Source: a virus
Direction: 5' to 3' (one strand)
IMG/VR virus record: IMGVR_UViG_3300042731_007310
Coordinates: 1 to 64,000 of that record
Length of the DNA: 64,000 nt
Part shown: piece after piece, positions 27,932 through 38,268 of the stretch
Numbering within the stretch: the stretch's first letter is position 1
How the letters are laid out: every line of letters starts with the position of its first letter
Notes under the pieces: model-generated
Told to the model about the DNA's origin: nothing
Databases searched by the model: none
Seen by the model: the letters and a program-made list of their open reading frames with translations, nothing else
Program-made: the position numbers and the translations under genes

Positions 27932-28387
27932 ATGGGCTACTTTGATCCAAGAGACGGTAGAAGAAAATCGGATCCATTGAGATCGTTAGATAGAGCACCA
28001 GCATACGCGCCAGACTGGCAACTTCACCGGGTAACGAATGCTCAAGATACGGTTTTTACAGAAAAGAAACATGGCGTAAATTGTGGTCATTATAAATCTG
28101 TAAGATTTGCTATTGTTCCATACGACAATGATCCTACAAGGGTTCCTGGTGCCACACCTGGTGGTTCGGCAAATCCAAATGTTGAGGTTATGATTTGGTC
28201 TGAAAGTGCTGGTGAATTTCTTTCATTTCCTACCGCACTAACCGGAACTGGTGTTGGTGCTGGTGATCCGTATATGGTTGACGTTGAAAATGCAAACGGA
28301 GCAATTTTATTTGTTGCCGTAACGGCCGCACCTGGTGGTGTTGTTGCAATATCAGCACAAGGTTACGAAATCGATCATACGTTGTAA
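27932..28387 (+). CDS. probable virion protein
   Basis: AGGAG RBS; beta-rich. Confidence 0.6.
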   Translation: MGYFDPRDGRRKSDPLRSLDRAPAYAPDWQLHRVTNAQDTVFTEKKHGVNCGHYKSVRFAIVPYDNDPTRVPGATPGGSANPNVEVMIWSESAGEFLSFPTALTGTGVGAGDPYMVDVENANGAILFVAVTAAPGGVVAISAQGYEIDHTL

Positions 28388-28656
28388 TGCCCTTCCCCAA
28401 CGAGCACGCGGCTAGACAAGCCGATCCTGATAGCTTTGATACTTTCCGTAGGGGAAAGCCGAAGGGCTTTCCCCGTGGTATATCTGTTATATTTGGTATA
28501 AAGAATGGTAAATCACGTATTCGGACCATCCGTTTCGATCGTAAACTATGGACTGTTGCGCGCGCTAGAGAGTGGCTAAAAAATCATGGTTTCAAATCAA
28601 CCATAGAAGCCGCTTCGAAAAAAGTAAAAAAAGGTTTTTGGAAAGGGATAATCTAG
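28387..28656 (+). CDS. small head-associated protein with scaffold-like C-terminus
   Basis: PFPNEHAAR domain; ends KKGFWKGII. Confidence 0.7.
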   Translation: MPFPNEHAARQADPDSFDTFRRGKPKGFPRGISVIFGIKNGKSRIRTIRFDRKLWTVARAREWLKNHGFKSTIEAASKKVKKGFWKGII

Positions 28657-28695
28657 TATCGTTATGTTCAACTTCAAATTTACAAGGGACTTCTA

Positions 28696-30168
28696 ATGTC
28701 CCTTGCACTATCCATACCGACTGAAAAACAGATTCGTAAGGCCGATAGGGTCCAATTGGAAACTTACTATCGCGATACGTATCAGACTAGGGATGGATGG
28801 ATTAGAAAACAAGTTTTAGAAAACAACAGGATTGACATACTGGCTATTGAAGTTCTTGGAAAGCAAATAGAACCTTTTCATTTGTCACTTCTGAAATATC
28901 AATTTGCTCATCCAGAAAATTTACAATTGTGTTTCCGTGGCGCTGGTAAATCAACCGTTTGTACTGAAATAAAAACGATACACTTACTTCTGAAAAATCC
29001 AAACCTAAGAATATTGATTGCTTCTAAAACTATAGCTAATGCTAAAGGATTTTTAAAAAATATAAAATCTCATTTTGAAACTAACCAAAGGTTAGAAGAG
29101 ATATTTGGTCAATACTATGATCCACGTCGAGTAGGAAAATGGGATGAAGTAGAAATAGAAGTGTTGCCAAGGACAATAGTTGCCAAAGAAGCATCAGTTA
29201 CTTGTGTTGGTGTTGAAGGTACTGTTGTTTCTAAACACTACGATATAATAATATCTGATGATTTGATTGATGAAGAAAACAGTAGAAGTAAGCTTCAAAG
29301 GGACAAAACACGTACGTGGTTTTACAACACGTTGATGCCAACGTTAGAACCGCCAGATCCGGAAGTGGAACACCGTGGTGAACATCATATGTTAGGGACT
29401 CGCTATCATTATGACGATTTATATGGTCATCTAATAGATAACGAATTGAAGGAACACCACCAAATAATTCCAGCGCTTGATAATAACGGCCGTAGTCCAT
29501 GGCCTAAAAAGTTTTCGCCTAAGTGGTTTGCGGAAAAACGTAAGCGTTCCGGACTAATCATCTTCAACTGTCAATATCAGTGTGACACCGAAGCGATGAA
29601 GGGCGAGATCTTCCAATATGATCAGTGTCAACAAATATCTGAAGAAGAATGGCCAGATCACAAGAATCTTCGCGTTTTTATGGGTGTTGATCTTGCTATT
29701 AGCGAAAGTGAATCAGCCGATAAATTCGCTATAGTAGTCATAGGAATAAATAGAGACAGAAGTGCTTACTACGTTCTAGATTATTATGAAAATCAATTGA
29801 GATTCAAAGAACAGACAAAAAAGATACTGGAATACTATCGAAGATGGCGACCTATTAGGTGTGCAATCGAGACAAATCAATATCAAGCCGCACAATATCA
29901 AACCTTGAAGGAAAAGAATCCAGATATTCGACTGAAGAAGGTTCAAACTGACAAAGACAAAATAACGAGAGCTTGGAAATTGTCGTCAATTTTTGAAGAC
30001 AATAGAGTGTTTTTTAGGAAGGGAATACAGGCATTATTGATAGAGCATATGGTTCTATTCCCAAACCATAGGTATAAAGATCTCTTTGATGCTTTCGATT
30101 TATCGGTACAAGCGAGTAAAATGAAACGAAAAAGGCGTAGAAGAGAAACGGAACCGGGAGTAATGTAA
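28696..30168 (+). CDS. terL: terminase large subunit
   Basis: FRGAGKST (Walker A), IISDDLID (Walker B), GTRY, GVDLA, DLFDA. Confidence 0.95.
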   Translation: MSLALSIPTEKQIRKADRVQLETYYRDTYQTRDGWIRKQVLENNRIDILAIEVLGKQIEPFHLSLLKYQFAHPENLQLCFRGAGKSTVCTEIKTIHLLLKNPNLRILIASKTIANAKGFLKNIKSHFETNQRLEEIFGQYYDPRRVGKWDEVEIEVLPRTIVAKEASVTCVGVEGTVVSKHYDIIISDDLIDEENSRSKLQRDKTRTWFYNTLMPTLEPPDPEVEHRGEHHMLGTRYHYDDLYGHLIDNELKEHHQIIPALDNNGRSPWPKKFSPKWFAEKRKRSGLIIFNCQYQCDTEAMKGEIFQYDQCQQISEEEWPDHKNLRVFMGVDLAISESESADKFAIVVIGINRDRSAYYVLDYYENQLRFKEQTKKILEYYRRWRPIRCAIETNQYQAAQYQTLKEKNPDIRLKKVQTDKDKITRAWKLSSIFEDNRVFFRKGIQALLIEHMVLFPNHRYKDLFDAFDLSVQASKMKRKRRRRETEPGVM

Positions 30169-30169
30169 A

Positions 30170-32020
30170 ATGGACAAATCAGAACAACATAAGGCTACTA
30201 TTTCGTCCAATAAAGCAAACAAGAAAGCGCTTCAGAAGGTTCGCGCTTTAGTAATAGACGTAAGTAAATCTGGTGCGGCTAATGGTTTGACAAGTAGTAA
30301 TGCTGAACCTGGTAGATCTGAAGCTTTACCTGAAGAACCGTTTCACGCATTAGGGCATATGGGGAAAATACTTCTTCCGCCTTTCGATATGCTTACGTTG
30401 TCAATGTTGGTTGAGAATAATAGCGAGCTAAATCAGTGTATAGAAGCGATGGAAACCAATATTGACGCAACCGGTCATAGGTTCATTTCTAGGCTAAGAA
30501 TGGATGATATAACACCTACAAGTAATGATTCGGGTGAATCACAAGGAGAGCTTACACCGGAACAAGAAAAACTTATCTTGAACGCAAAGAAAGAAAAGGT
30601 TGGTTTGATCAATTTCTTTACCTATGCGACTTCAGAAAGTTTCGTTTCTTTTCGTAGAAAGTTGAGAAAAGATATTGAGTCAACAGGAAATTGTTACTTT
30701 GAAATAATCCGGAATGACGCTGGACAGATTCAGGGTTTTACTCATTTGCCTAGCTATCAAATGAGAATAGGTAAATTAGAAGAAGAACCCGTTGAATCTG
30801 AAAGGAGTATTCTAGAACTTCAAATAGACGGATCTGTGAAAATAAAAAAGCAAAAAGTAATTCGAAGATTCAGAAACTATGTTCAAAGTAGATCTATTCA
30901 TCAGGGAAGGGCTCAATCATCCATTACTGGTCATAAGGTTGTTTGGTTCAAAGAATTTGGTGATCCAAGATTCTACAGTAAAAGAGATGGTAAAGAAAGG
31001 AAGAGAATACAAAAAGAAGATAGGGCTACTGAAGTAATGCATCTAAAAATTTATAGCCCTAGAAGTGCTTACGGATTACCGCGATACATTGGTAATCTAC
31101 TTTCAATATTTGGTGATCGTGCGGCTGAAGAAATAAATTGGATAACCTTCAAGAACAACAACATACCTAGTATGGTTATTGCTGTATCAAATGGGCAATT
31201 GACACAAGCAAGCGTAGAAAGAATTCAATCATTTGTTGAGTCTCAAATACAAGGATCTGACAACTATTCAAAGTTTCTTTTGGTTGAAGCTGAATCGTTG
31301 GGTGAAGAAGAAGGTGAAGATGGTGGTCAGGTAAAGATAGATATAAAGCCATTGACAGATAACCAACATAATGACGCACTATTTCAAAATTATAGTGAAA
31401 ATAATCAAGATAAAATTAGGCGTGCTTTTAGACTTCCACCTATTTTCGTTGGAAAAGCAAAGGACTATACGCGCGCTACCGCTGAATCTTCAAGACGATT
31501 AGCTGATGAACAAATATTCAAACCAGAAAGAGACGAATTCGACGAATGTATAAACAGAATGTTGTTTCCAGAAATGGGTATAATTTATCATAAGTATAGG
31601 AGTAATACGCCAAACACCACGGATAACGCTCAATTAGTGAAGATTCTTGGTGGTGCCGAAAAGACTGGTGGTATAACTCCGCGAATTGCAAGGTTCATAA
31701 TCGAAGATATTTTAGGTATAGACCTTCCGGACTTTCCGGATGATTTCCCCGCTGATGTTCCATTCTCTATGACTATGGCGCAAGCCGTAAAGAACAAGGC
31801 CGATCCGACTGAACCCGGTCAACAGGTCACAGCATTGAAGACATTGAAGTCACTTGGAATAATCGACGATGACGGTGATTTTGATTTGGCAAGTCTTGAA
31901 CTTGAGGATCTGGATGAGAGTGATCCTGAAAGTGTAATGGACGTTGCTAAAAAATTGTTGTCATTGAACAGAGCGGCTGAAATTTTGTGGCGTCAAAAAG
32001 TTATGGAAGAAGTTGAATGA
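30170..32020 (+). CDS. portal protein (PBSX type)
   Basis: GNCYFEIIRN, YGLPRYIG, FRLPPIFVG, YTRATA; follows TerL. Confidence 0.93.
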   Translation: MDKSEQHKATISSNKANKKALQKVRALVIDVSKSGAANGLTSSNAEPGRSEALPEEPFHALGHMGKILLPPFDMLTLSMLVENNSELNQCIEAMETNIDATGHRFISRLRMDDITPTSNDSGESQGELTPEQEKLILNAKKEKVGLINFFTYATSESFVSFRRKLRKDIESTGNCYFEIIRNDAGQIQGFTHLPSYQMRIGKLEEEPVESERSILELQIDGSVKIKKQKVIRRFRNYVQSRSIHQGRAQSSITGHKVVWFKEFGDPRFYSKRDGKERKRIQKEDRATEVMHLKIYSPRSAYGLPRYIGNLLSIFGDRAAEEINWITFKNNNIPSMVIAVSNGQLTQASVERIQSFVESQIQGSDNYSKFLLVEAESLGEEEGEDGGQVKIDIKPLTDNQHNDALFQNYSENNQDKIRRAFRLPPIFVGKAKDYTRATAESSRRLADEQIFKPERDEFDECINRMLFPEMGIIYHKYRSNTPNTTDNAQLVKILGGAEKTGGITPRIARFIIEDILGIDLPDFPDDFPADVPFSMTMAQAVKNKADPTEPGQQVTALKTLKSLGIIDDDGDFDLASLELEDLDESDPESVMDVAKKLLSLNRAAEILWRQKVMEEVE

Positions 32021-33249
32021 AAACGGTCGATTTATACCACGGACTTCATTGTGAATGTTGTTCTAGTCGTATCAATATTCTTCATGATGTTTTAGCGTAT
32101 TCTGATGAAGCCATAGCTAAGGCGTTGATGATAAGCGACGTTGCACATATGGCAAGGATTGAAGTGCGTATGCGCGAATACCTTTTGTCAAAATGGAGAT
32201 TACGCGCAGATCAAGCGGCTAAAAAGGCTGGTGGTGTATACGCGAGTACGGGATCTTTGAAAACGTCTTTCGCGGCTGTAGACAAAATAATGGATAAATG
32301 GGATGAAGAAGTAGCCGTTCGTTTTGGTAAAGATATAGGAGAAATTTACAAGTTAGCTAGAAATGCCGGTTGGAAAAAAGCAAACGGTCAAACTTCAGCT
32401 TCACTACAATATATTGTTCCTAACTTCACCGAAGAACTGGAAGAAAAGGTGAAGAAGGCAAAAAAAATAAAAAGAAGGGTTGCCGCTGTAAAACCTTCTT
32501 TCGACTTGTTTGATGAACAAGCCGTGATGCAACTACAAGACGATCAAATGTTATGGATAGGAGTTCATTACAATAAGAATGTAAGAGACACTGTAAGGGA
32601 ATCGGTAAAACCTAGTGTAGTAGAAGGGGTAAGTAGAACTGAAGCCGGAAGGCGTGTGGCTGAAGCCGTTGGAAAACAACTGAGAAAAATAACGGTCCCT
32701 GGTGGATTCAACGGATCTGATGCAAAGTATTTTGAAGGTTTAGCCGCTAATACGGCTACCAATAGTCGCGTTCGTGGTCAATTACGAAGCTTCGTTGATG
32801 TAGGGGTTACCAGATATGAAATAATGAATCCAATGGATAACAGAACTTCACCCATTTGTGCTTATATGAATGGAAAGGTTTTTACTATTAGAGAAGGGGC
32901 CTCACTAATCGCTAAAGTTTCTGGTGCTACTAATCCAGATCAGGTAAAAGAAGCTCACCCATGGGTATCAACAACGGAAGCAAAAAGAATAGGTAGTGGT
33001 GGTGAAAGAGCCCTTGCTAAAGCTGGTTTATCACTTCCACCATATCATTTTCGTTGTAGAAGCACGGTAGACATATCTACTGAATCTGTTTCATTTGGTT
33101 CGTTATCGAAAGCCGAAATGATAGACGTTCCTAGTCGTAAACAACCGACTAGACAAAATACTCCAAAGAATAGAAAGCCTACTTCAAAACCAAAGCAATC
33201 CAAACCTACCAAACGTCCTGCAACACTTCCGGAAATTGGTAAAGTTTGA
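32017..33249 (+). CDS. MuF/SPP1 gp7-like head morphogenesis protein
   Basis: DNRTSPIC..NG; PPYHFRCRS. Confidence 0.9.
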   Translation: MKTVDLYHGLHCECCSSRINILHDVLAYSDEAIAKALMISDVAHMARIEVRMREYLLSKWRLRADQAAKKAGGVYASTGSLKTSFAAVDKIMDKWDEEVAVRFGKDIGEIYKLARNAGWKKANGQTSASLQYIVPNFTEELEEKVKKAKKIKRRVAAVKPSFDLFDEQAVMQLQDDQMLWIGVHYNKNVRDTVRESVKPSVVEGVSRTEAGRRVAEAVGKQLRKITVPGGFNGSDAKYFEGLAANTATNSRVRGQLRSFVDVGVTRYEIMNPMDNRTSPICAYMNGKVFTIREGASLIAKVSGATNPDQVKEAHPWVSTTEAKRIGSGGERALAKAGLSLPPYHFRCRSTVDISTESVSFGSLSKAEMIDVPSRKQPTRQNTPKNRKPTSKPKQSKPTKRPATLPEIGKV

Positions 33250-33281
33250 AGGTCTAGCGGATATCACGCTATCATAAAAAT

Positions 33282-33821
33282 ATGAACGATATTGCGCGCC
33301 ACATTGAAGGCATAGCTGAATGTGTCAGAAAAACAACCGTTCCAGCGCTTAGAGAAGAAGCGCGAAAAGAAATGGTTGTTGATACAGAAAAAGATACGTC
33401 TACAGAAAATTCACCAGATGAACAGAAGTCCGTAAAAAAGCAGATAGAAGTTTCGATCGCTAAAGCAGACGAAGAACAACAGACGGTTACTGGTATTGTA
33501 CTTCAGCCTGAAGTGGTGGATGGTCAAGGCGATATCATGTCTGAAGAAGTTATTAGAGATAGCGCTTATGCTTTTCTGATGAACTTCAATAAGGCAACCA
33601 AATTAGGCATTCAGCACAATAAATTCCCTGTTGGAAAACTTGCGTTGGTTGAAAGTTGGCTTTCTCCTATGGAAATGGCAATAGGTACTAAGACGGTCAA
33701 ACAGGGTTCTTGGATTATGACCGTAAAAATACTGGACAAAAAACTTTGGGAGAAAGTAAAGAAGGGTGAAATAACCGGCTTTAGTATTGGTGGTAAGGCC
33801 AAGGTTGTTGCATCAACATAG
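33282..33821 (+). CDS. XkdF-like prohead serine protease
   Basis: VLQPEVVDGQGD, QH, VESW, GEITGFSIGG. Confidence 0.9.
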   Translation: MNDIARHIEGIAECVRKTTVPALREEARKEMVVDTEKDTSTENSPDEQKSVKKQIEVSIAKADEEQQTVTGIVLQPEVVDGQGDIMSEEVIRDSAYAFLMNFNKATKLGIQHNKFPVGKLALVESWLSPMEMAIGTKTVKQGSWIMTVKILDKKLWEKVKKGEITGFSIGGKAKVVAST

Positions 33822-33837
33822 CAAGGAAACCAAAATC

Positions 33838-34797
33838 ATGCCTAAGAAACCTACGAGAAGATTTCTAAAATTAGATACCAATGAGGTATCGTTAGTTGAT
33901 GTTCCAGCAAACGAAGTTCCGTTTCTGGTTACTAAAAATCAAGATCAAATGGAGAATGATAACATGAGTGCACAAGCCGGAAATCAAAACATCGACGGTG
34001 AAAGTGTTCAAGTGCAAGTTGACGGTTCCGAAAGTTCCGTTCAAAAGGCAATAGAACATGTTAATTCTATCGTCGAAAATATCACGAAAGTTGTCACCGT
34101 AAAAAACCAGGGAGCGGAAGGAAACGAACAAGATAACGCTCAATCGGCCGATTCCGGTGATACCACAGATGTTAGCAAGGCTACGATCAAGTCCGTACTT
34201 TCTGCTTTAGGAATGAGCGGAGATGATATGAAAAAGGCTTGCGACAAATTGAAGGCGGCTGGATTCAATCCAAATCAGCAATTCCCTTCAGCACAACCAC
34301 CTGTCAAAAAGGATGCAAAGGGTGAAGGTTCTGAAGGTGAAACGGAAACACAAAAGTCTGATACCGATTCTGTCGTACAGGATCAACCGCTTACCATGCA
34401 ATCGCTAGCTGAAGCTGTTCAAAAAGCAGCGGCTTTTACGCCTAGCAGAATAGAACAACTGAAGAATGCTCAGGAAATCTTGAAGCTTGTTCTTGAAGCG
34501 GTTGCTCCCAATACATCACCCAAAACAAAAGTTCCGGGTGTTGAGAGTCATAGCAATCCGAGTGCCGTAAGCGATCTTTCTCAACCGACCAAGAAGCCGG
34601 TTATGAAGAATGCTGATGATAACGGAGAATTTGTTACAGCACTCAAAGCGCTAGCTGATGGCGTAAAGACCCTAACGGAACGTGTCGAGAATATCGAAAA
34701 GACTCGTAACGCTAGCAATAGCGTAGAAGATGACGGTGACACTGACACCAATACGGATACACAAAAGAGTAAAGGCCTTTGGAACGGACTTCTGTAG
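33838..34797 (+). CDS. scaffold protein with N-terminal protease fragment
   Basis: EVSLVDVPAN at the N-terminus; low-complexity body; directly upstream of the capsid gene; ends KGLWNGLL. Confidence 0.75.
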   Translation: MPKKPTRRFLKLDTNEVSLVDVPANEVPFLVTKNQDQMENDNMSAQAGNQNIDGESVQVQVDGSESSVQKAIEHVNSIVENITKVVTVKNQGAEGNEQDNAQSADSGDTTDVSKATIKSVLSALGMSGDDMKKACDKLKAAGFNPNQQFPSAQPPVKKDAKGEGSEGETETQKSDTDSVVQDQPLTMQSLAEAVQKAAAFTPSRIEQLKNAQEILKLVLEAVAPNTSPKTKVPGVESHSNPSAVSDLSQPTKKPVMKNADDNGEFVTALKALADGVKTLTERVENIEKTRNASNSVEDDGDTDTNTDTQKSKGLWNGLL

Positions 34798-34849
34798 AGA
34801 ATAACGGTCACAAGGCGCAAACAAAAGAAACTTTCAAGGAGAAACAGAA

Positions 34850-36052
34850 ATGACTATTTCAAATGAGGACATTGTCAGCAAGGCGGCAATCACCGCTGAT
34901 GCAATAGCGGCAAGCGGAAAGTTGAACAATGCGCAATCAGATCGTTTCATCGATTTTGTTATTGATGAGACCGTTCTAAAGGACAACGCGCGTATCGTTC
35001 GGTTCCGAAACGAAAATCTAGAAATCGATAAAATCGGTGTTGGCCGACGTGTGGCCGTACCGAAGTCTGAAGCGGTTGACCCACAGGTTAGACGCGGAAT
35101 CACGACTTCAAAAGTTACTTTGACTCCGCACGAATTATGCGTTCCGTTCGAGATCGGTGATAGCTTCAGAGAGCTGAATATCGAAGGTGATAGCATCGAA
35201 GAAACAATTATCCGATTGATGGCTACGCAACTTGCAAACGATCTGGAAGATCTATACATCAATGGTAACGAACTAGGTCCAGCGGTTCCACAATCCGATA
35301 TTTTGGAAAATGGAAGTTCAGACGAAGTCAAAGATGCATACTTGGCACTCTGTGACGGTTGGTCTATTCTCGCTGATGGTTCGAACATCGTTGACGCGCA
35401 AGGCCAAAATATCGGTCTATCGATTTTCAGCAAAGCAATCCGAGCCATGCCGACCAAATTTAGACGGAATCGATCGGCTCTACGGTGGTTTATCAGTCCG
35501 GACCTTTGGCAGCTATACCTAGAGAAGTTGTCAACGCGCGCTACCGCGTTGGGTGATGACGCTGCTAGGGGTGGTGGTGGAATGCCTGGACCTTTCGGAA
35601 TTACCGCTGTTCCAGTTCCGTTGTGGGAGTTTGAACCGCTTACGGTTGAACATGTGACCTTGACCGGAACAACCGCTGTAGCTCTAGCTAACGCCCCTGT
35701 AGTTGACGTTGTAGTTCATCCGGAAACGTTGGATAAGGTTCCTACCGTTGCTTATGTTGAAGGCGCTGGTAATGACTATATCCTTGACGCAACCAACGGA
35801 ACGATAGCTCGTGACGGTGCTAGTACAATTGGTAGTGGCGATACGGTCAAAGTAACCTACCGTTCGAATCCACAGATTCTATTGACCCATATGAATAACA
35901 TGATCATTGGTATCGGACGTGATATCAGAATCGAAAAGGATCGTGATATCTATAAGGGCGTGAATCAGTATGCGATTACCGCGAAAGTTGACGTAGAATA
36001 TGAGGAACTTACGGCAATCGTGAAGGTTAGAAACATCGGAAAGGGTGTATAA
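34850..36052 (+). CDS. major capsid protein (HK97 fold, XkdG-like) with inserted beta domain
   Basis: GKLNNAQSDRFID, NIEG, ANDLEDLYING, AMPTKF, RDIRIE. Confidence 0.92.
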   Translation: MTISNEDIVSKAAITADAIAASGKLNNAQSDRFIDFVIDETVLKDNARIVRFRNENLEIDKIGVGRRVAVPKSEAVDPQVRRGITTSKVTLTPHELCVPFEIGDSFRELNIEGDSIEETIIRLMATQLANDLEDLYINGNELGPAVPQSDILENGSSDEVKDAYLALCDGWSILADGSNIVDAQGQNIGLSIFSKAIRAMPTKFRRNRSALRWFISPDLWQLYLEKLSTRATALGDDAARGGGGMPGPFGITAVPVPLWEFEPLTVEHVTLTGTTAVALANAPVVDVVVHPETLDKVPTVAYVEGAGNDYILDATNGTIARDGASTIGSGDTVKVTYRSNPQILLTHMNNMIIGIGRDIRIEKDRDIYKGVNQYAITAKVDVEYEELTAIVKVRNIGKGV

Positions 36053-36136
36053 TTACTACCCAAAAATAAGCTTGTGATGTATTTTCACTAAGCAACAACG
36101 ATCATTTTGATTGATCCAAACAAGGAGATTCAAGAA

Positions 36137-36625
36137 ATGGCAAAAGGTTTTCAAGCAAAAATACAGTTATCTAAGACAAAACGCGCCCCCGTATCCCACA
36201 CGGGATTTAGGGGGCGTTTCGTCAAAAAGGGCGATAGCTTCATCACAACGGATCCCGTTGAAGTTCGGTATTATCAGTCTCAACCTGGTTTTAGCATAGC
36301 GATCTTATCGGGAAAGTTTACGGCTAAACCGGTTCAAGAAGAAGAGATTGATGAAGATATCGACGAACGGGATGACGAAGATGAAGTTGAAGAAGAAGAC
36401 GAAGAACGTAACGAAGAAGTAGATGGTCTTTACGAAAAAGCAGACCTGAAAAAAATGAGTCAAAAGGATTTGAAAAAACTCATAAAAGACGATGACGAAC
36501 TTCCGTTGACGTTGAAGGATATTCCGAAGAAGGCGAGCAAAAACGAAATAATCGATTTGATTTTGGAAGCACAAAATCAATCGGACGATGACGACGAAGA
36601 AGACGACGAAGAAGACGACGAATAA
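36137..36625 (+). CDS. acidic protein with Rho_N/HeH-like helical domain
   Basis: LKKMSQKDLKKL..SKNEIIDLIL; D/E tracts. Confidence 0.6.
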   Translation: MAKGFQAKIQLSKTKRAPVSHTGFRGRFVKKGDSFITTDPVEVRYYQSQPGFSIAILSGKFTAKPVQEEEIDEDIDERDDEDEVEEEDEERNEEVDGLYEKADLKKMSQKDLKKLIKDDDELPLTLKDIPKKASKNEIIDLILEAQNQSDDDDEEDDEEDDE

Positions 36626-36658
36626 GCCGTATCATTGTCGCTTCAGGGAGATTGAACC

Positions 36659-37039
36659 ATGTTTTTTATCAAATTCGGACATAACGCTTCAATCCAACAG
36701 GTTGAAGGATTTCCGAAAGATTGTGAGCGTTCGTGTGAAGGCGCTCTACATGTGAGACCAGGGGCGACAAAAAATGTCACAAAATCCGAATTGGAACGAC
36801 TTCAAGAATTGAAAATTCCCCTGATGGTTATACGCGAGCCAGTAAAAGTCAAAGTGGTCGAATCAGAATCAACAGAATTGCCCAGTGACGATGTTGAAAT
36901 CATACTTTCTACGCCATACGACGAAAATTCTGATCTATCGGTCGTAGAAAACTTTGACGCCTTAGAAGGGCATTCTGTGGACTCTGAAGAAGATTCAGAC
37001 CAAAAAGAGAAAAAGGGGAAAAAGCGAAAGAAGTACTAG
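36659..37039 (+). CDS. hypothetical head-module protein
   Basis: GGGAG RBS. Confidence 0.7.
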   Translation: MFFIKFGHNASIQQVEGFPKDCERSCEGALHVRPGATKNVTKSELERLQELKIPLMVIREPVKVKVVESESTELPSDDVEIILSTPYDENSDLSVVENFDALEGHSVDSEEDSDQKEKKGKKRKKY

Positions 37040-37069
37040 TTCCGATCGGCTCCAACCGAAAGAACTGTT

Positions 37070-37483
37070 GTGCTGAAGATACACACATGTGACGGCCAAA
37101 CACTTAGGGTTGATTTGGCTGATGAAGAACAAGCGCGCTTTTGGCTTGAACGTTTGGGTAAAGAAGAGTTTCAAGCTACAATCAATGGTGTGTCATTGGT
37201 GGAACGACATAACGTTGGAAGGTGTTCTGAATGTGGTAGAAAATACGGTAAAGAGATCGGTGTTCAGTATTCGATTACAAGACCGGATGATTTCCGAAAA
37301 GTGTTTTTCCATATCGAAAATATTCCAGCTAACGGAAAGATAAAGGGTGGTGAAAGGGTAACCGTGTTTTCTGATGAAATACGCCTTGTCCTTATGGCTC
37401 ATCGTTCACAACCAGCGGCTAGAATAACAGTATCAAAAACCGGAAAGCAGAAATACAATCCATTTCAGGGAGCGAAAAAATGA
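37070..37483 (+). CDS. hypothetical protein
   Basis: ORF coupled to the next gene. Confidence 0.65.
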   Translation: MLKIHTCDGQTLRVDLADEEQARFWLERLGKEEFQATINGVSLVERHNVGRCSECGRKYGKEIGVQYSITRPDDFRKVFFHIENIPANGKIKGGERVTVFSDEIRLVLMAHRSQPAARITVSKTGKQKYNPFQGAKK

Positions 37484-38268
37484 GTAATCCCATTACACAA
37501 AATATTTTTGTTCGTAAAGATATCAAATTGGCAACTGGCGAAAGTGTCAGTGACTTCACTAAAAAGTTGCGTGAAAGTTGCGTGAAATGGGCTAGACAGA
37601 AATTGGCGCTTGATGTGAAGAAGGGAGATATCTATCCGGTTGAGATTTTCAGTTCAGCCGTTGTTTTTGATGTCTATAAATACGACTCTGAACCCGGAAA
37701 CAGACAACAGTATTTCGCTTGTAAATACAAGCGTCAAGATACTGGTGGGTTTGAATTTGAAAGTCTAATGGAAGTCGAAAGGGTTGTTTCATTTCAACAG
37801 AAACAAAATGCCCCTGTTATGAAGTCCAAAGGAATCGAAGTAGACGTTGAAAAGGCGCCATTGTCTACGGCTACAATCAACGATTTACCAGATGCGGCTT
37901 TCGCGATTATTCTACCTGGTGGAAAAAAAGACGCGAGCGGAAAAACTACACCACGTAATCTTCGAATGTTGCCGCATCATACGCGCAATGTTCAGAGTGC
38001 TAGCGAAGATAGTACGATTGATATGCCACGTTTGAGGAATGCATTAGCAAGATTGAATCAAGCTAAGTTGAGTCAGGAACAAAGAAGTAGGGCTAGTAAT
38101 CATTTGGATAAACACGCTAATGCGGTTTTGGCTAGCCGTGGTGGTGATCCAGGGAAGATCGATGCTACCCGTGGAAATCGCGCTGGTGCTAAACCAGTAA
38201 AGAAGGCACTTGACGTTTGTGATGGTTGGATAGAAACGTCAAAATCATTTTGGAATGGAGTGATCTGA
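37480..38268 (+). CDS. head-associated multidomain protein with scaffold-like C-terminus
   Basis: NDLPDAAFA..GKTTPRNLRMLPHH..RNALAR domain; ends KSFWNGVI. Confidence 0.75.
   Translation: MSNPITQNIFVRKDIKLATGESVSDFTKKLRESCVKWARQKLALDVKKGDIYPVEIFSSAVVFDVYKYDSEPGNRQQYFACKYKRQDTGGFEFESLMEVERVVSFQQKQNAPVMKSKGIEVDVEKAPLSTATINDLPDAAFAIILPGGKKDASGKTTPRNLRMLPHHTRNVQSASEDSTIDMPRLRNALARLNQAKLSQEQRSRASNHLDKHANAVLASRGGDPGKIDATRGNRAGAKPVKKALDVCDGWIETSKSFWNGVI

What the first reader, a model, noticed from the sequence alone, without database searches (positions are those of the whole stretch)
28387..38268. Shared C-terminal motif on the scaffold and two other proteins: a possible capsid cargo-loading signal
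Seen: three otherwise unrelated ORFs end with the same motif right at the stop: KKGFWKGII (28656), SKGLWNGLL (34797, scaffold) and SKSFWNGVI (38268). Established: scaffold C-termini bind the coat protein interior (P22, herpesviruses), and encapsulin cargo uses terminal peptides. Inference: the two extra proteins mimic the scaffold tail to be co-assembled into the prohead, forming a portable packaging tag.
Basis: partly seen in the sequence, partly recalled or inferred. Interest (0 to 1): 0.8.

Follow-up and report, generated by a model that had tools for sequence, protein, structure and literature searches.

The report
Scaffold-tail address tag on phage proteins
An uncultured 84-kb tailed phage ends two otherwise unrelated head-region proteins with the same short peptide that ends its capsid scaffold, most likely a label that docks them inside the young capsid, although no binding or packaging test exists yet.

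Summary
Three + strand genes end in [FL]-W-x-G-[ILV]-[ILV]-stop: 28387-28656, the scaffold 33838-34797, and 37480-38268. This pattern occurs nowhere else in any frame of the 84,478-bp genome; 0.018 such tails are expected by chance.

The shared part is about ten residues: [TV]-x-K-[SG]-[FL]-W-x-G-[VI]-[LI]-COOH. It is conserved as protein, not as DNA. Apart from it the three proteins are unrelated.

- **Conservation:** the Trp tail ends 53 of 56 scaffold homologue clusters, 20 of 22 relatives of the small protein and 26 of 26 aligned relatives of the 262-aa protein.
- **Portability:** it sits on at least five domain architectures.
- **Link to the capsid interior:** both passenger domains occur elsewhere fused to prohead proteases of several families, or inside capsid-protein fusion genes.
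- **Co-variation:** within-genome co-variation of the tails is modest (p about 0.01-0.04 in some tests, not significant in others).

Best reading (about 0.65): a scaffold-type docking peptide brings both proteins into the procapsid. It is probably cut off afterwards at an adjacent [VT]-x-K site.

No binding, packaging or cleavage was tested. Unchecked notes from this scan record similar scaffold-tail tags on other DNA. This is a new variant of a known kind.

The parts
28387..28656 (+). Small tail-bearing protein (89 aa). It has a roughly 78-residue domain that starts M-P-F-P-N-E-H-A-A-R, a short linker and the C-terminal tail. It lies directly upstream of the large terminase gene.
   Evidence: One search gives the ORF. 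Searches give 22 homologue clusters, 20 of which keep the Trp tail. AlphaFold2 mean pLDDT 84.9, four strands and one helix, last block of residues about 50; the domain is widespread and often fused to prohead proteases.
28624..28653 (+). Tail of the small protein, last 10 residues (V-K-K-G-F-W-K-G-I-I).
33282..33821 (+). XkdF-type prohead protease (179 aa). It has no tail.
   Evidence: PF14550, E 8.7e-33; protease homologues in relatives end soon after the G-F-S-I-G-G block and carry no Trp tail.
33838..34797 (+). Scaffold protein (319 aa from the ATG at 33838). It is acidic and has a single Trp, which lies in the tail.
   Evidence: residues 197-319 match positions 298-401 of phrog_3017, E 4.1e-6; alignment of 18 non-redundant relatives; 49 D+E, one W at residue 315; 53 of 56 homologue clusters end in the Trp tail.
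34759..34794 (+). Scaffold tail, last 12 residues (T-Q-K-S-K-G-L-W-N-G-L-L).
34850..36052 (+). Major capsid protein (400 aa). It is the presumed docking partner of the tails.
   Evidence: phrog_1623, E 1.2e-72; tblastn matches to annotated major capsid proteins of cultured phages at about 31-39% identity; a [VIT]-x-K-[small] site at residue 11 is conserved in 21 of 22 relatives.
37480..38268 (+). 262-aa tail-bearing protein. It has an N-terminal alpha+beta domain (about 1-103), a linker, a middle domain with the D-L-P-D-A-A-F-A motif (about 125-220), a second linker and the tail.
   Evidence: W258 is invariant and W250 nearly so in 26 aligned relatives. AlphaFold2 mean pLDDT 73.4, with the linkers 104-124 and 224-243 below 50.
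38224..38265 (+). Extended tail of the 262-aa protein, last 14 residues (G-W-I-E-T-S-K-S-F-W-N-G-V-I).

Best explanation
The last ten or so residues, [TV]-x-K-[SG]-[FL]-W-x-G-[VI]-[LI]-COOH, form a short docking peptide at the end of a flexible linker.

On the scaffold it is the element that holds the scaffold to the inner face of the assembling capsid shell. This is inferred by analogy with 80alpha, P22 and the herpesviruses. The 89-aa and the 262-aa proteins carry the same peptide, so they are drawn into the procapsid alongside the scaffold. This too is inferred.

Their passenger domains belong to families that other phages bring into the head by direct fusion to the prohead protease or the capsid protein. 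The fusions are shown; the shared location is inferred.

The conserved [TV]-x-K-[SG] just before the Trp looks like the site type conserved in the scaffold body and at capsid-protein residue 11. After assembly the XkdF-type protease would therefore probably cut the anchor off and free the passenger inside the head. I give this last step about 45% on its own.

Shown here: the motif, its conservation, its portability and the fusions.
Not shown here: binding, packaging and cleavage.
For: 1. The pattern is far beyond chance: 3 terminal occurrences, none internal, against 0.018 expected.

2. Selection acts on the protein. Codons and stop codons differ among the three tails.

3. Conservation at the very C-terminus:
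- Scaffold: 47 of 56 homologue clusters match the strict pattern and 53 of 56 have a Trp tail. The other 3 have Phe at that place. In 53 of 56 the tail Trp is the protein's only Trp.
- Small protein: 20 of 22 clusters.
- 262-aa protein: 26 of 26 aligned relatives.

4. Portability. The tail ends at least five architectures:
- the ORF1-type domain alone;
- N-domain + D-L-P-D domain;
- N-domain alone (P0008, P0027, P0039);
- D-L-P-D domain + another domain (P0031, P0032);
- N-domain + ORF1-type domain (nine clusters, e.g. P0152).
It also ends a protease-scaffold fusion in L041.

5. Links to the capsid interior.
- Of 111 long relatives of the ORF1-type domain, 34 carry PF14550, 13 PF04586, 10 Mu-like_Pro and 1 Clp protease. 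Families may overlap on one member.
- In cultured Synechococcus phages S-CBS1 and S-CBS3 and in Roseobacter CRP-82x phages the domain lies inside genes annotated as major capsid protein. S-CBS3 gp04 is 836 aa.
- Relatives of the middle domain of the 262-aa protein carry PF04586 or PF14550.

6. Whole-genome scans of five complete relatives (104-114 kb) with a DNA pattern for the tail gave 9 matches. Eight are the three families. The ninth does not end an ORF of 40 aa or more. The reversed control pattern gave 1 match.

7. The tail goes with this capsid family. Among 80 loci holding an ORF1-type domain, 21 have a tail (17) or a degenerate tail (4), and 15 of those 21 hold a homologue of this capsid protein within the locus. 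None of the 59 tail-less loci does.

8. Co-variation.
- Scaffold against small protein: within-genome score 18.5, between-genome 11.5, n=13, permutation p=0.027; p=0.036 by identities.
- Scaffold against 262-aa protein: p=0.013, n=16.
- In L041 both tails have the same two-residue extension. In L043 both end in the same hexapeptide.

9. The tails lie in low-confidence, linker-like stretches of both models.

10. Precedents.
- 80alpha scaffold and SaPI1 CpmB share a C-terminal helix-and-hook that binds the same site on the capsid protein (PMC5644958, passages read).
- Herpesvirus UL26 and UL26.5 share a C-terminus. Scaffold C-termini bind the major capsid protein. UL26 has an M site after residue 610 of 635 (PMC12474303, passages read).

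11. Cut site.
- [VIT]-x-K-[small] is conserved at 4 of 6 conserved-Lys columns of the scaffold and at capsid-protein residue 11 (21 of 22).
- It is conserved at 0 of 12 such columns in the portal, 0 of 5 in the MuF-like protein, 0 of 4 in the protease and 1 of 19 in the terminase.
- Lys sits at -3 from the tail Trp in 22 of 26, 11 of 20 and 8 of 17 tails.
Against: - No binding, co-folding, proteomic or structural test was possible, so the partner of the tail is inferred.
- Co-variation is weak. By identities the scaffold against 262-aa protein test is not significant (p=0.18-0.44). Scaffold against small protein was not significant in the first set of 7 genomes (p=0.48). Small protein against 262-aa protein lost significance in the larger set (p=0.20, n=9). 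Related genomes are not independent.
- The prohead protease, which must enter the procapsid, has no tail in this genome.
- Two of 15 non-redundant homologues of the 262-aa protein (L013, L018) have no tail. Two of 22 clusters of the small protein lack the Trp.
- In the most distant capsid relatives (L022-L026) the ORF taken as scaffold ends differently, and no second protein within 10 kb shares its end.
- The cut-site motif is short and degenerate. No published specificity for XkdF-type proteases was found.
Confidence: 0.65

Rival explanations
1. The tail does target the procapsid, but it docks on another component instead of the capsid protein: the scaffold core itself (tail-to-tail or tail-to-scaffold association, as the T4 targeting sequence addresses the core), the portal, or the protease.
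For: - Nothing here identifies the partner.
- The large terminase of all relatives ends E-P-G-[VL]-[LIM]-stop, which shares its last three residues with the tail. From recall, terminase C-termini bind portals in other phages.
- The protease has no tail and must be recruited some other way. The scaffold N-terminus carries a conserved E-V-S-L-V-D-x-P-A-N strand.
Against: - Where the contact has been resolved, the scaffold's C-terminal end touches the capsid protein (80alpha; herpesviruses; summary in PMC12749128).
- The capsid protein, a likely protease substrate (site at residue 11 in 21 of 22), has no tail, so the tail is not a general substrate-recognition handle.
- In L041 the tail sits on the protease-scaffold fusion itself. 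That makes the protease an unlikely target.
Confidence: 0.17
2. The two proteins are assembly modifiers, not cargo. They compete with the scaffold for its site on the capsid protein and so tune shell curvature, size or timing, as SaPI1 CpmB does. They leave with the scaffold.
For: - CpmB is the one proven case of a second protein copying a scaffold tail, and it works by competition.
- Both proteins are encoded in the head module and are conserved across relatives with genomes of about 63-114 kb.
Against: - Both passenger domains occur in many phage groups as N-terminal passengers on prohead proteases of several Pfam families and in capsid-protein fusions. That fits a role inside the head, independent of this particular shell.
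- The small protein's fold is a compact beta-hairpin plus helix unit, with no long dimerising helix of the CpmB or scaffold kind.
Confidence: 0.12
3. The tail serves a purpose unrelated to assembly, for example as a C-terminal degradation signal for a host protease or a handle for a host factor. The scaffold and the two proteins share it for regulated turnover.
For: Hydrophobic C-termini can act as degrons in bacteria (recalled, not tested here). The tail is short, terminal and lies after a flexible linker.
Against: - An invariant Trp at -4 and Gly at -2 suggest a specific pocket, beyond a general need for hydrophobic residues.
- The tail was found only next to this capsid family: 15 of 21 against 0 of 59 loci.
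- It sits where scaffolds carry their shell-binding element.
Confidence: 0.05
4. The similarity is chance, or a leftover of common descent or recombination, and has no present function.
For: None beyond the shortness of the motif.
Against: - 0.018 occurrences are expected and 3 are seen.
- The tail is kept at the C-terminus of three families across dozens of clusters while the linkers before it vary in length and sequence.
- Synonymous codons differ.
Confidence: 0.01

Closest known systems
Staphylococcal phage 80alpha scaffold and SaPI1 CpmB (C-terminal helix-and-hook with the RIIK motif; Dearborn et al. 2017, PMC5644958, passages read)
   Same: A second, otherwise different protein carries the scaffold's C-terminal peptide and uses the scaffold's site on the capsid protein. 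The peptide is short, terminal and exchangeable between the two proteins.
   Different: - The motif sequence is different: no RIIK here, and instead a Trp-x-Gly-hydrophobic-hydrophobic end after an acidic linker.
- CpmB belongs to a satellite and redirects capsid size. Here the copies are the phage's own genes, and their domains look like passengers.
- Binding is proven for 80alpha and only inferred here.
Herpesvirus protease-scaffold UL26 and scaffold UL26.5 (shared C-terminal capsid-protein-binding tail, M site; PMC12474303, passages read)
   Same: Two proteins enter the procapsid through one identical C-terminal tail that binds the major capsid protein. UL26 has a protease site (the M site) just upstream of that tail, which matches the anchor-and-cut idea proposed here.
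   Different: In herpesviruses the shared tail comes from nested in-frame genes, so the two proteins share their whole C-terminal halves. From recall the same holds for lambda C/Nu3 and Mu I/Z. Here three separate genes with unrelated bodies share only about ten residues, and the protease of this genome lacks the tail.
Capsid targeting sequence of phage T4 internal proteins IPI-III and Alt (recalled; reviews listed, not read)
   Same: A short portable peptide loads unrelated proteins into the prohead, and the head protease removes it at an adjacent site.
   Different: The T4 signal is N-terminal, addresses the scaffold core and is cut at a hydrophobic-x-Glu site (recalled). Here the tag is C-terminal, copies the scaffold's own end, and the putative site is [VT]-x-Lys.
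HK97 maturation protease C-terminal targeting region (Duda, Oh and Hendrix 2013; only the title was seen in a reference list; the paper is not held)
   Same: A C-terminal stretch of a non-shell protein directs it into an HK97-type prohead (content recalled).
   Different: That signal is on the protease itself, in a phage whose scaffold is the capsid protein's own N-terminal domain. Here the protease lacks the tag, and a separate scaffold and two further proteins carry it.
Encapsulin cargo-loading peptides (recalled; no paper on them was opened here)
   Same: Short C-terminal peptides on diverse cargo dock to the interior of a shell built, in encapsulins, from an HK97-fold protein (recalled); the fold of this capsid protein was not modelled here.
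   Different: Encapsulins have no scaffold, portal or DNA packaging. This is a tailed phage with a terminase, a portal, a protease and a scaffold.

Membership tests
Scaffold-tail mimicry of the 80alpha SP / SaPI1 CpmB type | The motif lies at the extreme C-terminus of the scaffold protein | tested here: met
   The scaffold 33838-34797 ends in the motif. 53 of 56 homologue clusters keep a Trp tail.
Scaffold-tail mimicry of the 80alpha SP / SaPI1 CpmB type | The same motif lies at the C-terminus of a protein otherwise unrelated to the scaffold | tested here: met
   Two such proteins are present. There is no significant similarity outside the tail.
Scaffold-tail mimicry of the 80alpha SP / SaPI1 CpmB type | RIIK sequence motif within a helix-and-hook | tested here: not met
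   The tail consensus is [TV]-x-K-[SG]-[FL]-W-x-G-[VI]-[LI] and holds no RIIK. This is therefore not a member of that sequence family, though it may work the same way.
Scaffold-tail mimicry of the 80alpha SP / SaPI1 CpmB type | Both tails bind one site on the capsid protein | not testable with these tools
Herpesvirus-type shared scaffold/protease C-terminus with M-site release | The shared tail arises from nested in-frame genes | tested here: not met
   Three separate genes with unrelated bodies. The protease ORF 33282-33821 has no tail.
Herpesvirus-type shared scaffold/protease C-terminus with M-site release | The maturation protease cuts just upstream of the shell-binding tail | tested here: inconclusive
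   A [VIT]-x-K-[small] pattern precedes the Trp in 16 of 17 scaffolds, 21 of 26 relatives of the 262-aa protein and 10 of 20 relatives of the small protein. It matches sites conserved in the scaffold and at capsid-protein residue 11. No cleavage data exist.
T4 capsid targeting sequence | N-terminal position of the tag | tested here: not met
   The tag is C-terminal in all three families.
T4 capsid targeting sequence | The tagged proteins are packaged and stay in the head | not testable with these tools
   This needs virion or prohead proteomics.
Encapsulin cargo-loading peptide system | The shell has no portal, terminase or scaffold | tested here: not met
   Terminase, portal, MuF-like protein, protease and scaffold are all present.
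XkdF-type (PF14550) head module | A prohead protease of family PF14550 lies next to the scaffold and the capsid protein | tested here: met
   PF14550 E 8.7e-33 at 33282-33821. The capsid protein matches phrog_1623 at E 1.2e-72.
BRX domain (PF08381), for the small protein | Score above Pfam's gathering threshold | tested here: inconclusive
   The window protein scores 21.1 bits against a cut-off of 24.5, E 2.1e-4. 48 of 111 long relatives match at E up to 0.001. The best solved-structure match is a BRX domain, Foldseek E 0.26, TM 0.45/0.63.
DUF6582 (PF20223) / ChaB-like, for the middle domain of the 262-aa protein | Pfam match | tested here: inconclusive
   No Pfam family matched at E up to 0.1. 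However, proteins carrying PF20223 or PF06150 match residues of the middle domain at 49-54% identity over about 30% of the query.

The most novel reading that the evidence does not exclude
The ten-residue tail is a self-contained 'anchor-and-cut' loading module: a shell-binding hook joined to a head-protease site. It can be placed on any protein to load it into the procapsid and then release it. Phages of this group use it in place of fusion to the protease.

The passenger it carries here is a very widespread domain (3471 representative clusters) that always begins at a free N-terminal proline. This suggests an unrecognised encapsidated factor, possibly an enzyme, common to many tailed phages. 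If unchecked notes from this scan on other genomes hold, scaffold-tail copying is a general way for uncultured phages to load capsid cargo, and I found no description of it in print.
Probability: 0.3. Interest if true: 0.75.

Novelty: new variant of a known kind. Interest (0 to 1): 0.6.

Why it matters
If the tail does dock proteins inside the procapsid, it is a natural, minimal and transferable loading signal for an HK97-type phage capsid. It could be tested directly with a reporter protein and used for loading proteins into phage-derived capsids.

It would also show that phages can recruit internal proteins by copying the end of their own scaffold. Until now this is documented only for a satellite's size-redirection factor and for nested protease/scaffold genes.

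It also gives a first functional context, the capsid interior, to two widespread domains of unknown function that are often attached to prohead proteases.

Tried and rejected
**DNA repeat instead of a protein motif.** Rejected. The three tail-coding stretches differ at synonymous sites and in their stop codons, and nothing downstream aligns.

**The small protein as the small terminase** (it sits in that slot). Rejected. Its domain is fused to prohead proteases in many relatives.

**Programmed frameshift or stop read-through joining protease and scaffold.** Not supported. The scaffold frame lies in relative frame 0, 1 or 2 in different relatives; my own arithmetic on the coordinates puts 5 of 18 lineages in frame, about the third expected by chance.

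**Further tail-bearing proteins.**
- None elsewhere in this genome.
- None in five complete relatives.
- None within 10 kb of the capsid gene in the most distant relatives.
- None around the capsid gene of Streptomyces phage Elmer, whose protease-scaffold fusion has a K-W-G-G stretch followed by further residues.

**Fold searches.**
- The small protein gave only a weak BRX-like match.
- The N-domain of the 262-aa protein gave a common cystatin/NTF2/VirB8-like arrangement, best Z 6.2, below the level the tool calls meaningful.
- The viral library returned long uncharacterised phage proteins and some labelled prohead protease.
- No function follows from any of these.

**Cultured relatives of the 262-aa protein.** Only the middle domain matched, in Thermoanaerobacterium phage THSA-485A.

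**Literature.**
- Five searches found no paper on this motif, on XkdF protease specificity or on these domains.
- This covers only the held library. Virion-proteome tables of cultured phages with related capsid genes might bear on whether homologues are packaged, and I did not see them.
- The Duda et al. 2013 paper is not held. What I say of it is recalled.
- Notes from earlier in this scan were used as leads only.

Full report
**1. What is there**

The window is the first 64 kb of an 84,478-bp single-contig virus record. Nearly all long ORFs lie on the + strand.

The finding lies in the head module:

| Coordinates | Gene | Evidence |
|---|---|---|
| 28696-30168 | large terminase | PF17289; phrog_38, E 3.7e-79 |
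| 30170-32020 | portal | PF04860 |
| 32017-33249 | MuF-like minor head protein | below Pfam's cut-off; several PHROGs |
| 33282-33821 | XkdF-type prohead protease | PF14550, E 8.7e-33 |
| 33838-34797 | acidic 319-aa protein | see below |
| 34850-36052 | major capsid protein | phrog_1623, E 1.2e-72; about 31-39% identical to annotated major capsid proteins of Streptomyces phages |

I accept the 319-aa protein as the scaffold for three reasons:
- Its position between protease and capsid gene.
- Its last 123 residues match the C-terminal end of phrog_3017, a 402-residue family labelled head maturation protease (E 4.1e-6).
- In relative L041 a 400-aa protein holds the protease domain and ends in the tail.

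**2. The observation**

They are the 89-aa protein at 28387-28656, the scaffold, and the 262-aa protein at 37480-38268.

- The pattern [FLIMVWY]-W-x-G-[ILVMF]-[ILVMF] occurs three times in six frames of the window and three times in the whole genome. Each time it is directly before a stop.
- 0.018 such ends are expected among 512 frames of 50 aa or more.
- The DNA encoding the tails differs at synonymous positions and in the stop codons, and downstream sequence does not align.
- Outside the tails the proteins show no significant similarity.
- Anchored on the Trp, the three families share a longer consensus: [TV] at -5, Lys at -3, Ser/Gly at -2, Phe/Leu at -1, Trp, x, Gly, Val/Ile, Leu/Ile, then the end.
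- The scaffold's only Trp is the one in the tail.

**3. Conservation in relatives**

A search with the capsid protein brought in 27 viral loci at 51-98% capsid identity.

*Scaffold.*
- In 18 non-redundant relatives the scaffold has three conserved parts: an N-terminal stretch (R-R-F, then E-V-S-L-V-D-x-P-A-N), a helix near the C-terminus, and an acidic linker of variable length.
- Seventeen of these 18 scaffolds then end in the tail; one has Phe in place of the Trp.
- In a database-wide search, 47 of 56 scaffold homologue clusters match the strict pattern and 53 of 56 end in a Trp tail.
- The other three have Phe in place of Trp.
- In 53 of 56 the tail Trp is the only Trp. Overall identity falls to about 30%.

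*Small protein.* Twenty of its 22 homologue clusters keep the Trp tail.

*262-aa protein.*
- All 26 aligned relatives keep the tail. W258 is the only invariant column.
- In the loci, 13 of 15 non-redundant homologues carry the tail. L013 and L018 do not.

*Whole genomes.* A degenerate DNA pattern for the tail was run over five complete relatives of 104-114 kb.
- It gave 9 matches, against 1 for the reversed control pattern.
- Eight are members of the three families.
- The ninth lies on the strand opposite the local genes and ends no ORF of 40 aa or more.

The set of tagged proteins is therefore small and stable in this group: the scaffold plus these two families.

**4. Portability**

The tail ends several different architectures:
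- the ORF1-type domain alone;
- the N-domain plus the D-L-P-D-A-A-F-A domain (the window's 262-aa protein);
- the N-domain alone, about 145-150 aa (P0008, P0027, P0039);
- the D-L-P-D domain followed by a different domain (P0031, P0032);
- the N-domain plus the ORF1-type domain in one chain (nine clusters among the 148 listed, e.g. P0148, P0152, P0164; L037 is a locus of this kind);
- a protease-scaffold fusion (L041).

A ten-residue end that stays fixed while the domains before it are swapped is what a modular signal looks like.

**5. What the passengers are**

*ORF1-type domain.*
- It folds with confidence (mean pLDDT 84.9) into four strands and a helix. The tail residues are of low confidence.
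- Its nearest solved structure is a BRX domain, weakly. Pfam BRX scores just under threshold.
- A profile search of 1.84 billion representatives found 3471 proteins at E up to 0.001.
- In most of those the domain is the N-terminal part of a much longer protein.
- I scanned 111 of the 114 that are 190 aa or longer; three were dropped only to stay under the residue limit.
- Of these 111, 34 carry the XkdF protease family, 13 the HK97-type protease family, 10 the Mu protease/scaffold family, 11 DUF2213 and 1 Clp protease. Counts may overlap on a member.
- In cultured phages the domain lies inside genes annotated as major capsid protein: Synechococcus S-CBS1 and S-CBS3, and Roseobacter CRP-821, 822, 823 and 831. 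S-CBS3 gp04 is 836 aa.

*Middle domain of the 262-aa protein.* It has relatives in proteins carrying PF04586, PF14550, PF20223 or PF06150. In the viral structure library it matches long phage proteins, some labelled prohead protease.

*N-domain of the 262-aa protein.* It has a common helix-plus-sheet arrangement with no informative match.

Both passengers thus belong to domain families that other phages attach covalently to proteins working inside the procapsid. That is indirect but independent support for an interior location.

In distant relatives of this very head module the protease is the C-terminal domain of 821-1120-aa proteins. These also hold a D12 DNA methyltransferase, or a methyltransferase plus an ATP-dependent DNA ligase domain. 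Riding into the head on the protease therefore seems common in this lineage, and the tail looks like the alternative route.

**6. Association with the capsid family, and co-variation**

Among 80 loci fetched with the ORF1-type profile:
- 17 have an ORF1-type protein ending in the tail.
- 4 have a degenerate version.
- 15 of these 21 hold a homologue of the window's capsid protein within the locus.
- None of the other 59 loci does.

This is confounded by relatedness, but it agrees with a tail matched to this head module.

Permutation tests compared tails within a genome against tails between genomes:

| Pair | Set | n | Result |
|---|---|---|---|
| Scaffold / 262-aa protein | first | 13-15 | BLOSUM p=0.012-0.038; identities p=0.28-0.44 |
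| Scaffold / small protein | first | 7 | p=0.48 |
| Small / 262-aa protein | first | 6-7 | p=0.006-0.039 |
| Scaffold / small protein | enlarged | 13 | within 18.5 vs between 11.5; BLOSUM p=0.027; identities p=0.036 |
| Scaffold / 262-aa protein | enlarged | 16 | BLOSUM p=0.013; identities p=0.18 |
| Small / 262-aa protein | enlarged | 9 | p=0.20 |

Rows dropped as near-duplicates were L003, L005, L006, L010 and L017. From the second set I dropped L034, L035 and L046-L048, L056 (same contigs as the first set), L044, and L051 and L052.

Single cases are suggestive:
- In L041 the protease-scaffold fusion and the ORF1-type protein both carry a two-residue extension after G-V-L.
- In L043 both end in the same hexapeptide.
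- In L016 the scaffold and the homologue of the 262-aa protein both have Gly-Gly before the hydrophobic-Trp pair.
- In L008 all three have Asp at -2.

Taken together I call this modest support. The tail varies too little for a strong test, and the genomes are related.

**7. The adjacent site**

I tested how well such sites are conserved:

| Protein | Conserved sites / conserved-Lys columns |
|---|---|
| Scaffold | 4 of 6 |
| Capsid protein | 3 of 13, including residue 11 (21 of 22 relatives) |
| Portal | 0 of 12 |
| MuF-like protein | 0 of 5 |
| Protease | 0 of 4 |
| Terminase | 1 of 19 |

The same pattern directly precedes the tail Trp.

The ORF1-type domain gives independent support. It starts at a proline right after the initiator Met in 108 of 171 relatives. 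When the domain is internal, the residue before that proline is Lys in 36 of 53 cases, with [VILT]-x-K in 30 of 53.

This fits a protease that cuts after Lys in this context. It also fits removal of the anchor after assembly, as an M site upstream of the shell-binding C-terminus would allow in herpesviruses. From recall, HK97's capsid protein is cut after a Lys.

No cleavage data exist for XkdF-type proteases in the library I could search, so this step remains an inference.

**8. Comparison with what is known**

- 80alpha scaffold and SaPI1 CpmB: a shared C-terminal helix-and-hook, the same site on the capsid protein, exchangeable tails.
- Herpesvirus UL26 and UL26.5: a shared tail through nested genes, and an M site upstream of the shell-binding C-terminus.
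- T4's N-terminal targeting sequence, the HK97 protease's targeting region, and encapsulin cargo peptides (all recalled).

The present case works like these but is not a member of any of them:
- The motif is different from RIIK.
- The tag is C-terminal, unlike T4.
- The genes are separate and unrelated, unlike the nested pairs.
- The protease lacks the tag.
- The particle is a DNA-packaging phage, unlike encapsulins.

Five literature searches found no description of this motif, or of a phage tagging its own non-scaffold proteins with its scaffold's end. This holds for the held library only.

Unchecked notes from this scan report similar scaffold-tail tags on other genomes, one with a W-x-G-x-F end. 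I did not check them, and they are not independent evidence.

**9. Verdict**

It gains support from conservation, portability and the protease and capsid fusions of the passenger domains.
- The partner of the tail, the packaging and the proposed cut are all untested.
- I rate it a new variant of a known kind, of good but not exceptional interest. The prediction is clear and cheap to test at the bench.

Noticed in passing
window 28390-28420, and relatives P0121-P0291: The ORF1-type domain begins with a proline directly after the initiator Met in 108 of 171 relatives. In 36 of 53 internal copies the residue before that proline is Lys, and 30 of 53 have [VILT]-x-K. The domain seems to need a free N-terminal proline, exposed either by Met removal or by a protease cut. 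This hints at a functional, possibly catalytic, N-terminus.
   Followed up: partly
window 33838-34797 (scaffold) and 34850-34885 (capsid protein N-terminus): [VIT]-x-K-[small] sites are conserved at 4 of 6 conserved-Lys columns of the scaffold and at capsid-protein residue 11 (21 of 22 relatives). They are conserved at none of the 21 such columns in the portal, the MuF-like protein and the protease, and at 1 of 19 in the terminase. They are candidate cut sites of the XkdF-type protease.
   Followed up: partly
window 33282-33945: The protease ORF stops just after its G-F-S-I-G-G block. The next gene, the scaffold, opens with a conserved R-R-F ... E-V-S-L-V-D-x-P-A-N stretch. Relatives have the two genes in all three relative frames (coordinates), and L041 has them fused. 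The tail-less protease may be recruited through this scaffold N-terminus.
   Followed up: partly
L024:6091-8553 and L022:5796-9155: In distant relatives of this head module the XkdF protease is the C-terminal domain of 821- and 1120-aa proteins. These also carry a D12 N6-adenine DNA methyltransferase, or a methyltransferase plus an ATP-dependent DNA ligase domain. They may be enzymes carried into the capsid on the protease.
   Followed up: no
window 30139-30168 (C-terminus of the large terminase) and relatives: Nearly all terminase homologues in the relatives (all but L025, which has V-G-V-I) end in a run of basic residues followed by E-P-G-[VL]-[LIM]-stop. The last three residues resemble the end of the tail. 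The meaning is unknown; it may be a portal-docking end.
   Followed up: no
L029:3629-6139 (Synechococcus phage S-CBS3 gp04): The gene annotated as major capsid protein is 836 aa long and contains an ORF1-type domain near residues 125-196. It is probably a multi-domain head polyprotein rather than a plain capsid protein.
   Followed up: no
window 37480-37790: The N-domain of the 262-aa protein is predicted as one long helix packed on a four-stranded sheet, a cystatin/NTF2/VirB8-like arrangement. The best Z is 6.2, too weak to infer relationship or function.
   Followed up: yes
proteins P0094, P0096, P0099, P0107, P0109, P0111, P0113, P0115: A separate group of 338-417-aa proteins holding the D-L-P-D-type domain share another conserved C-terminal end: G-P-G-Q-x-W-F-N-[VI]. 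This may be a different terminal tag in another phage group.
   Followed up: no
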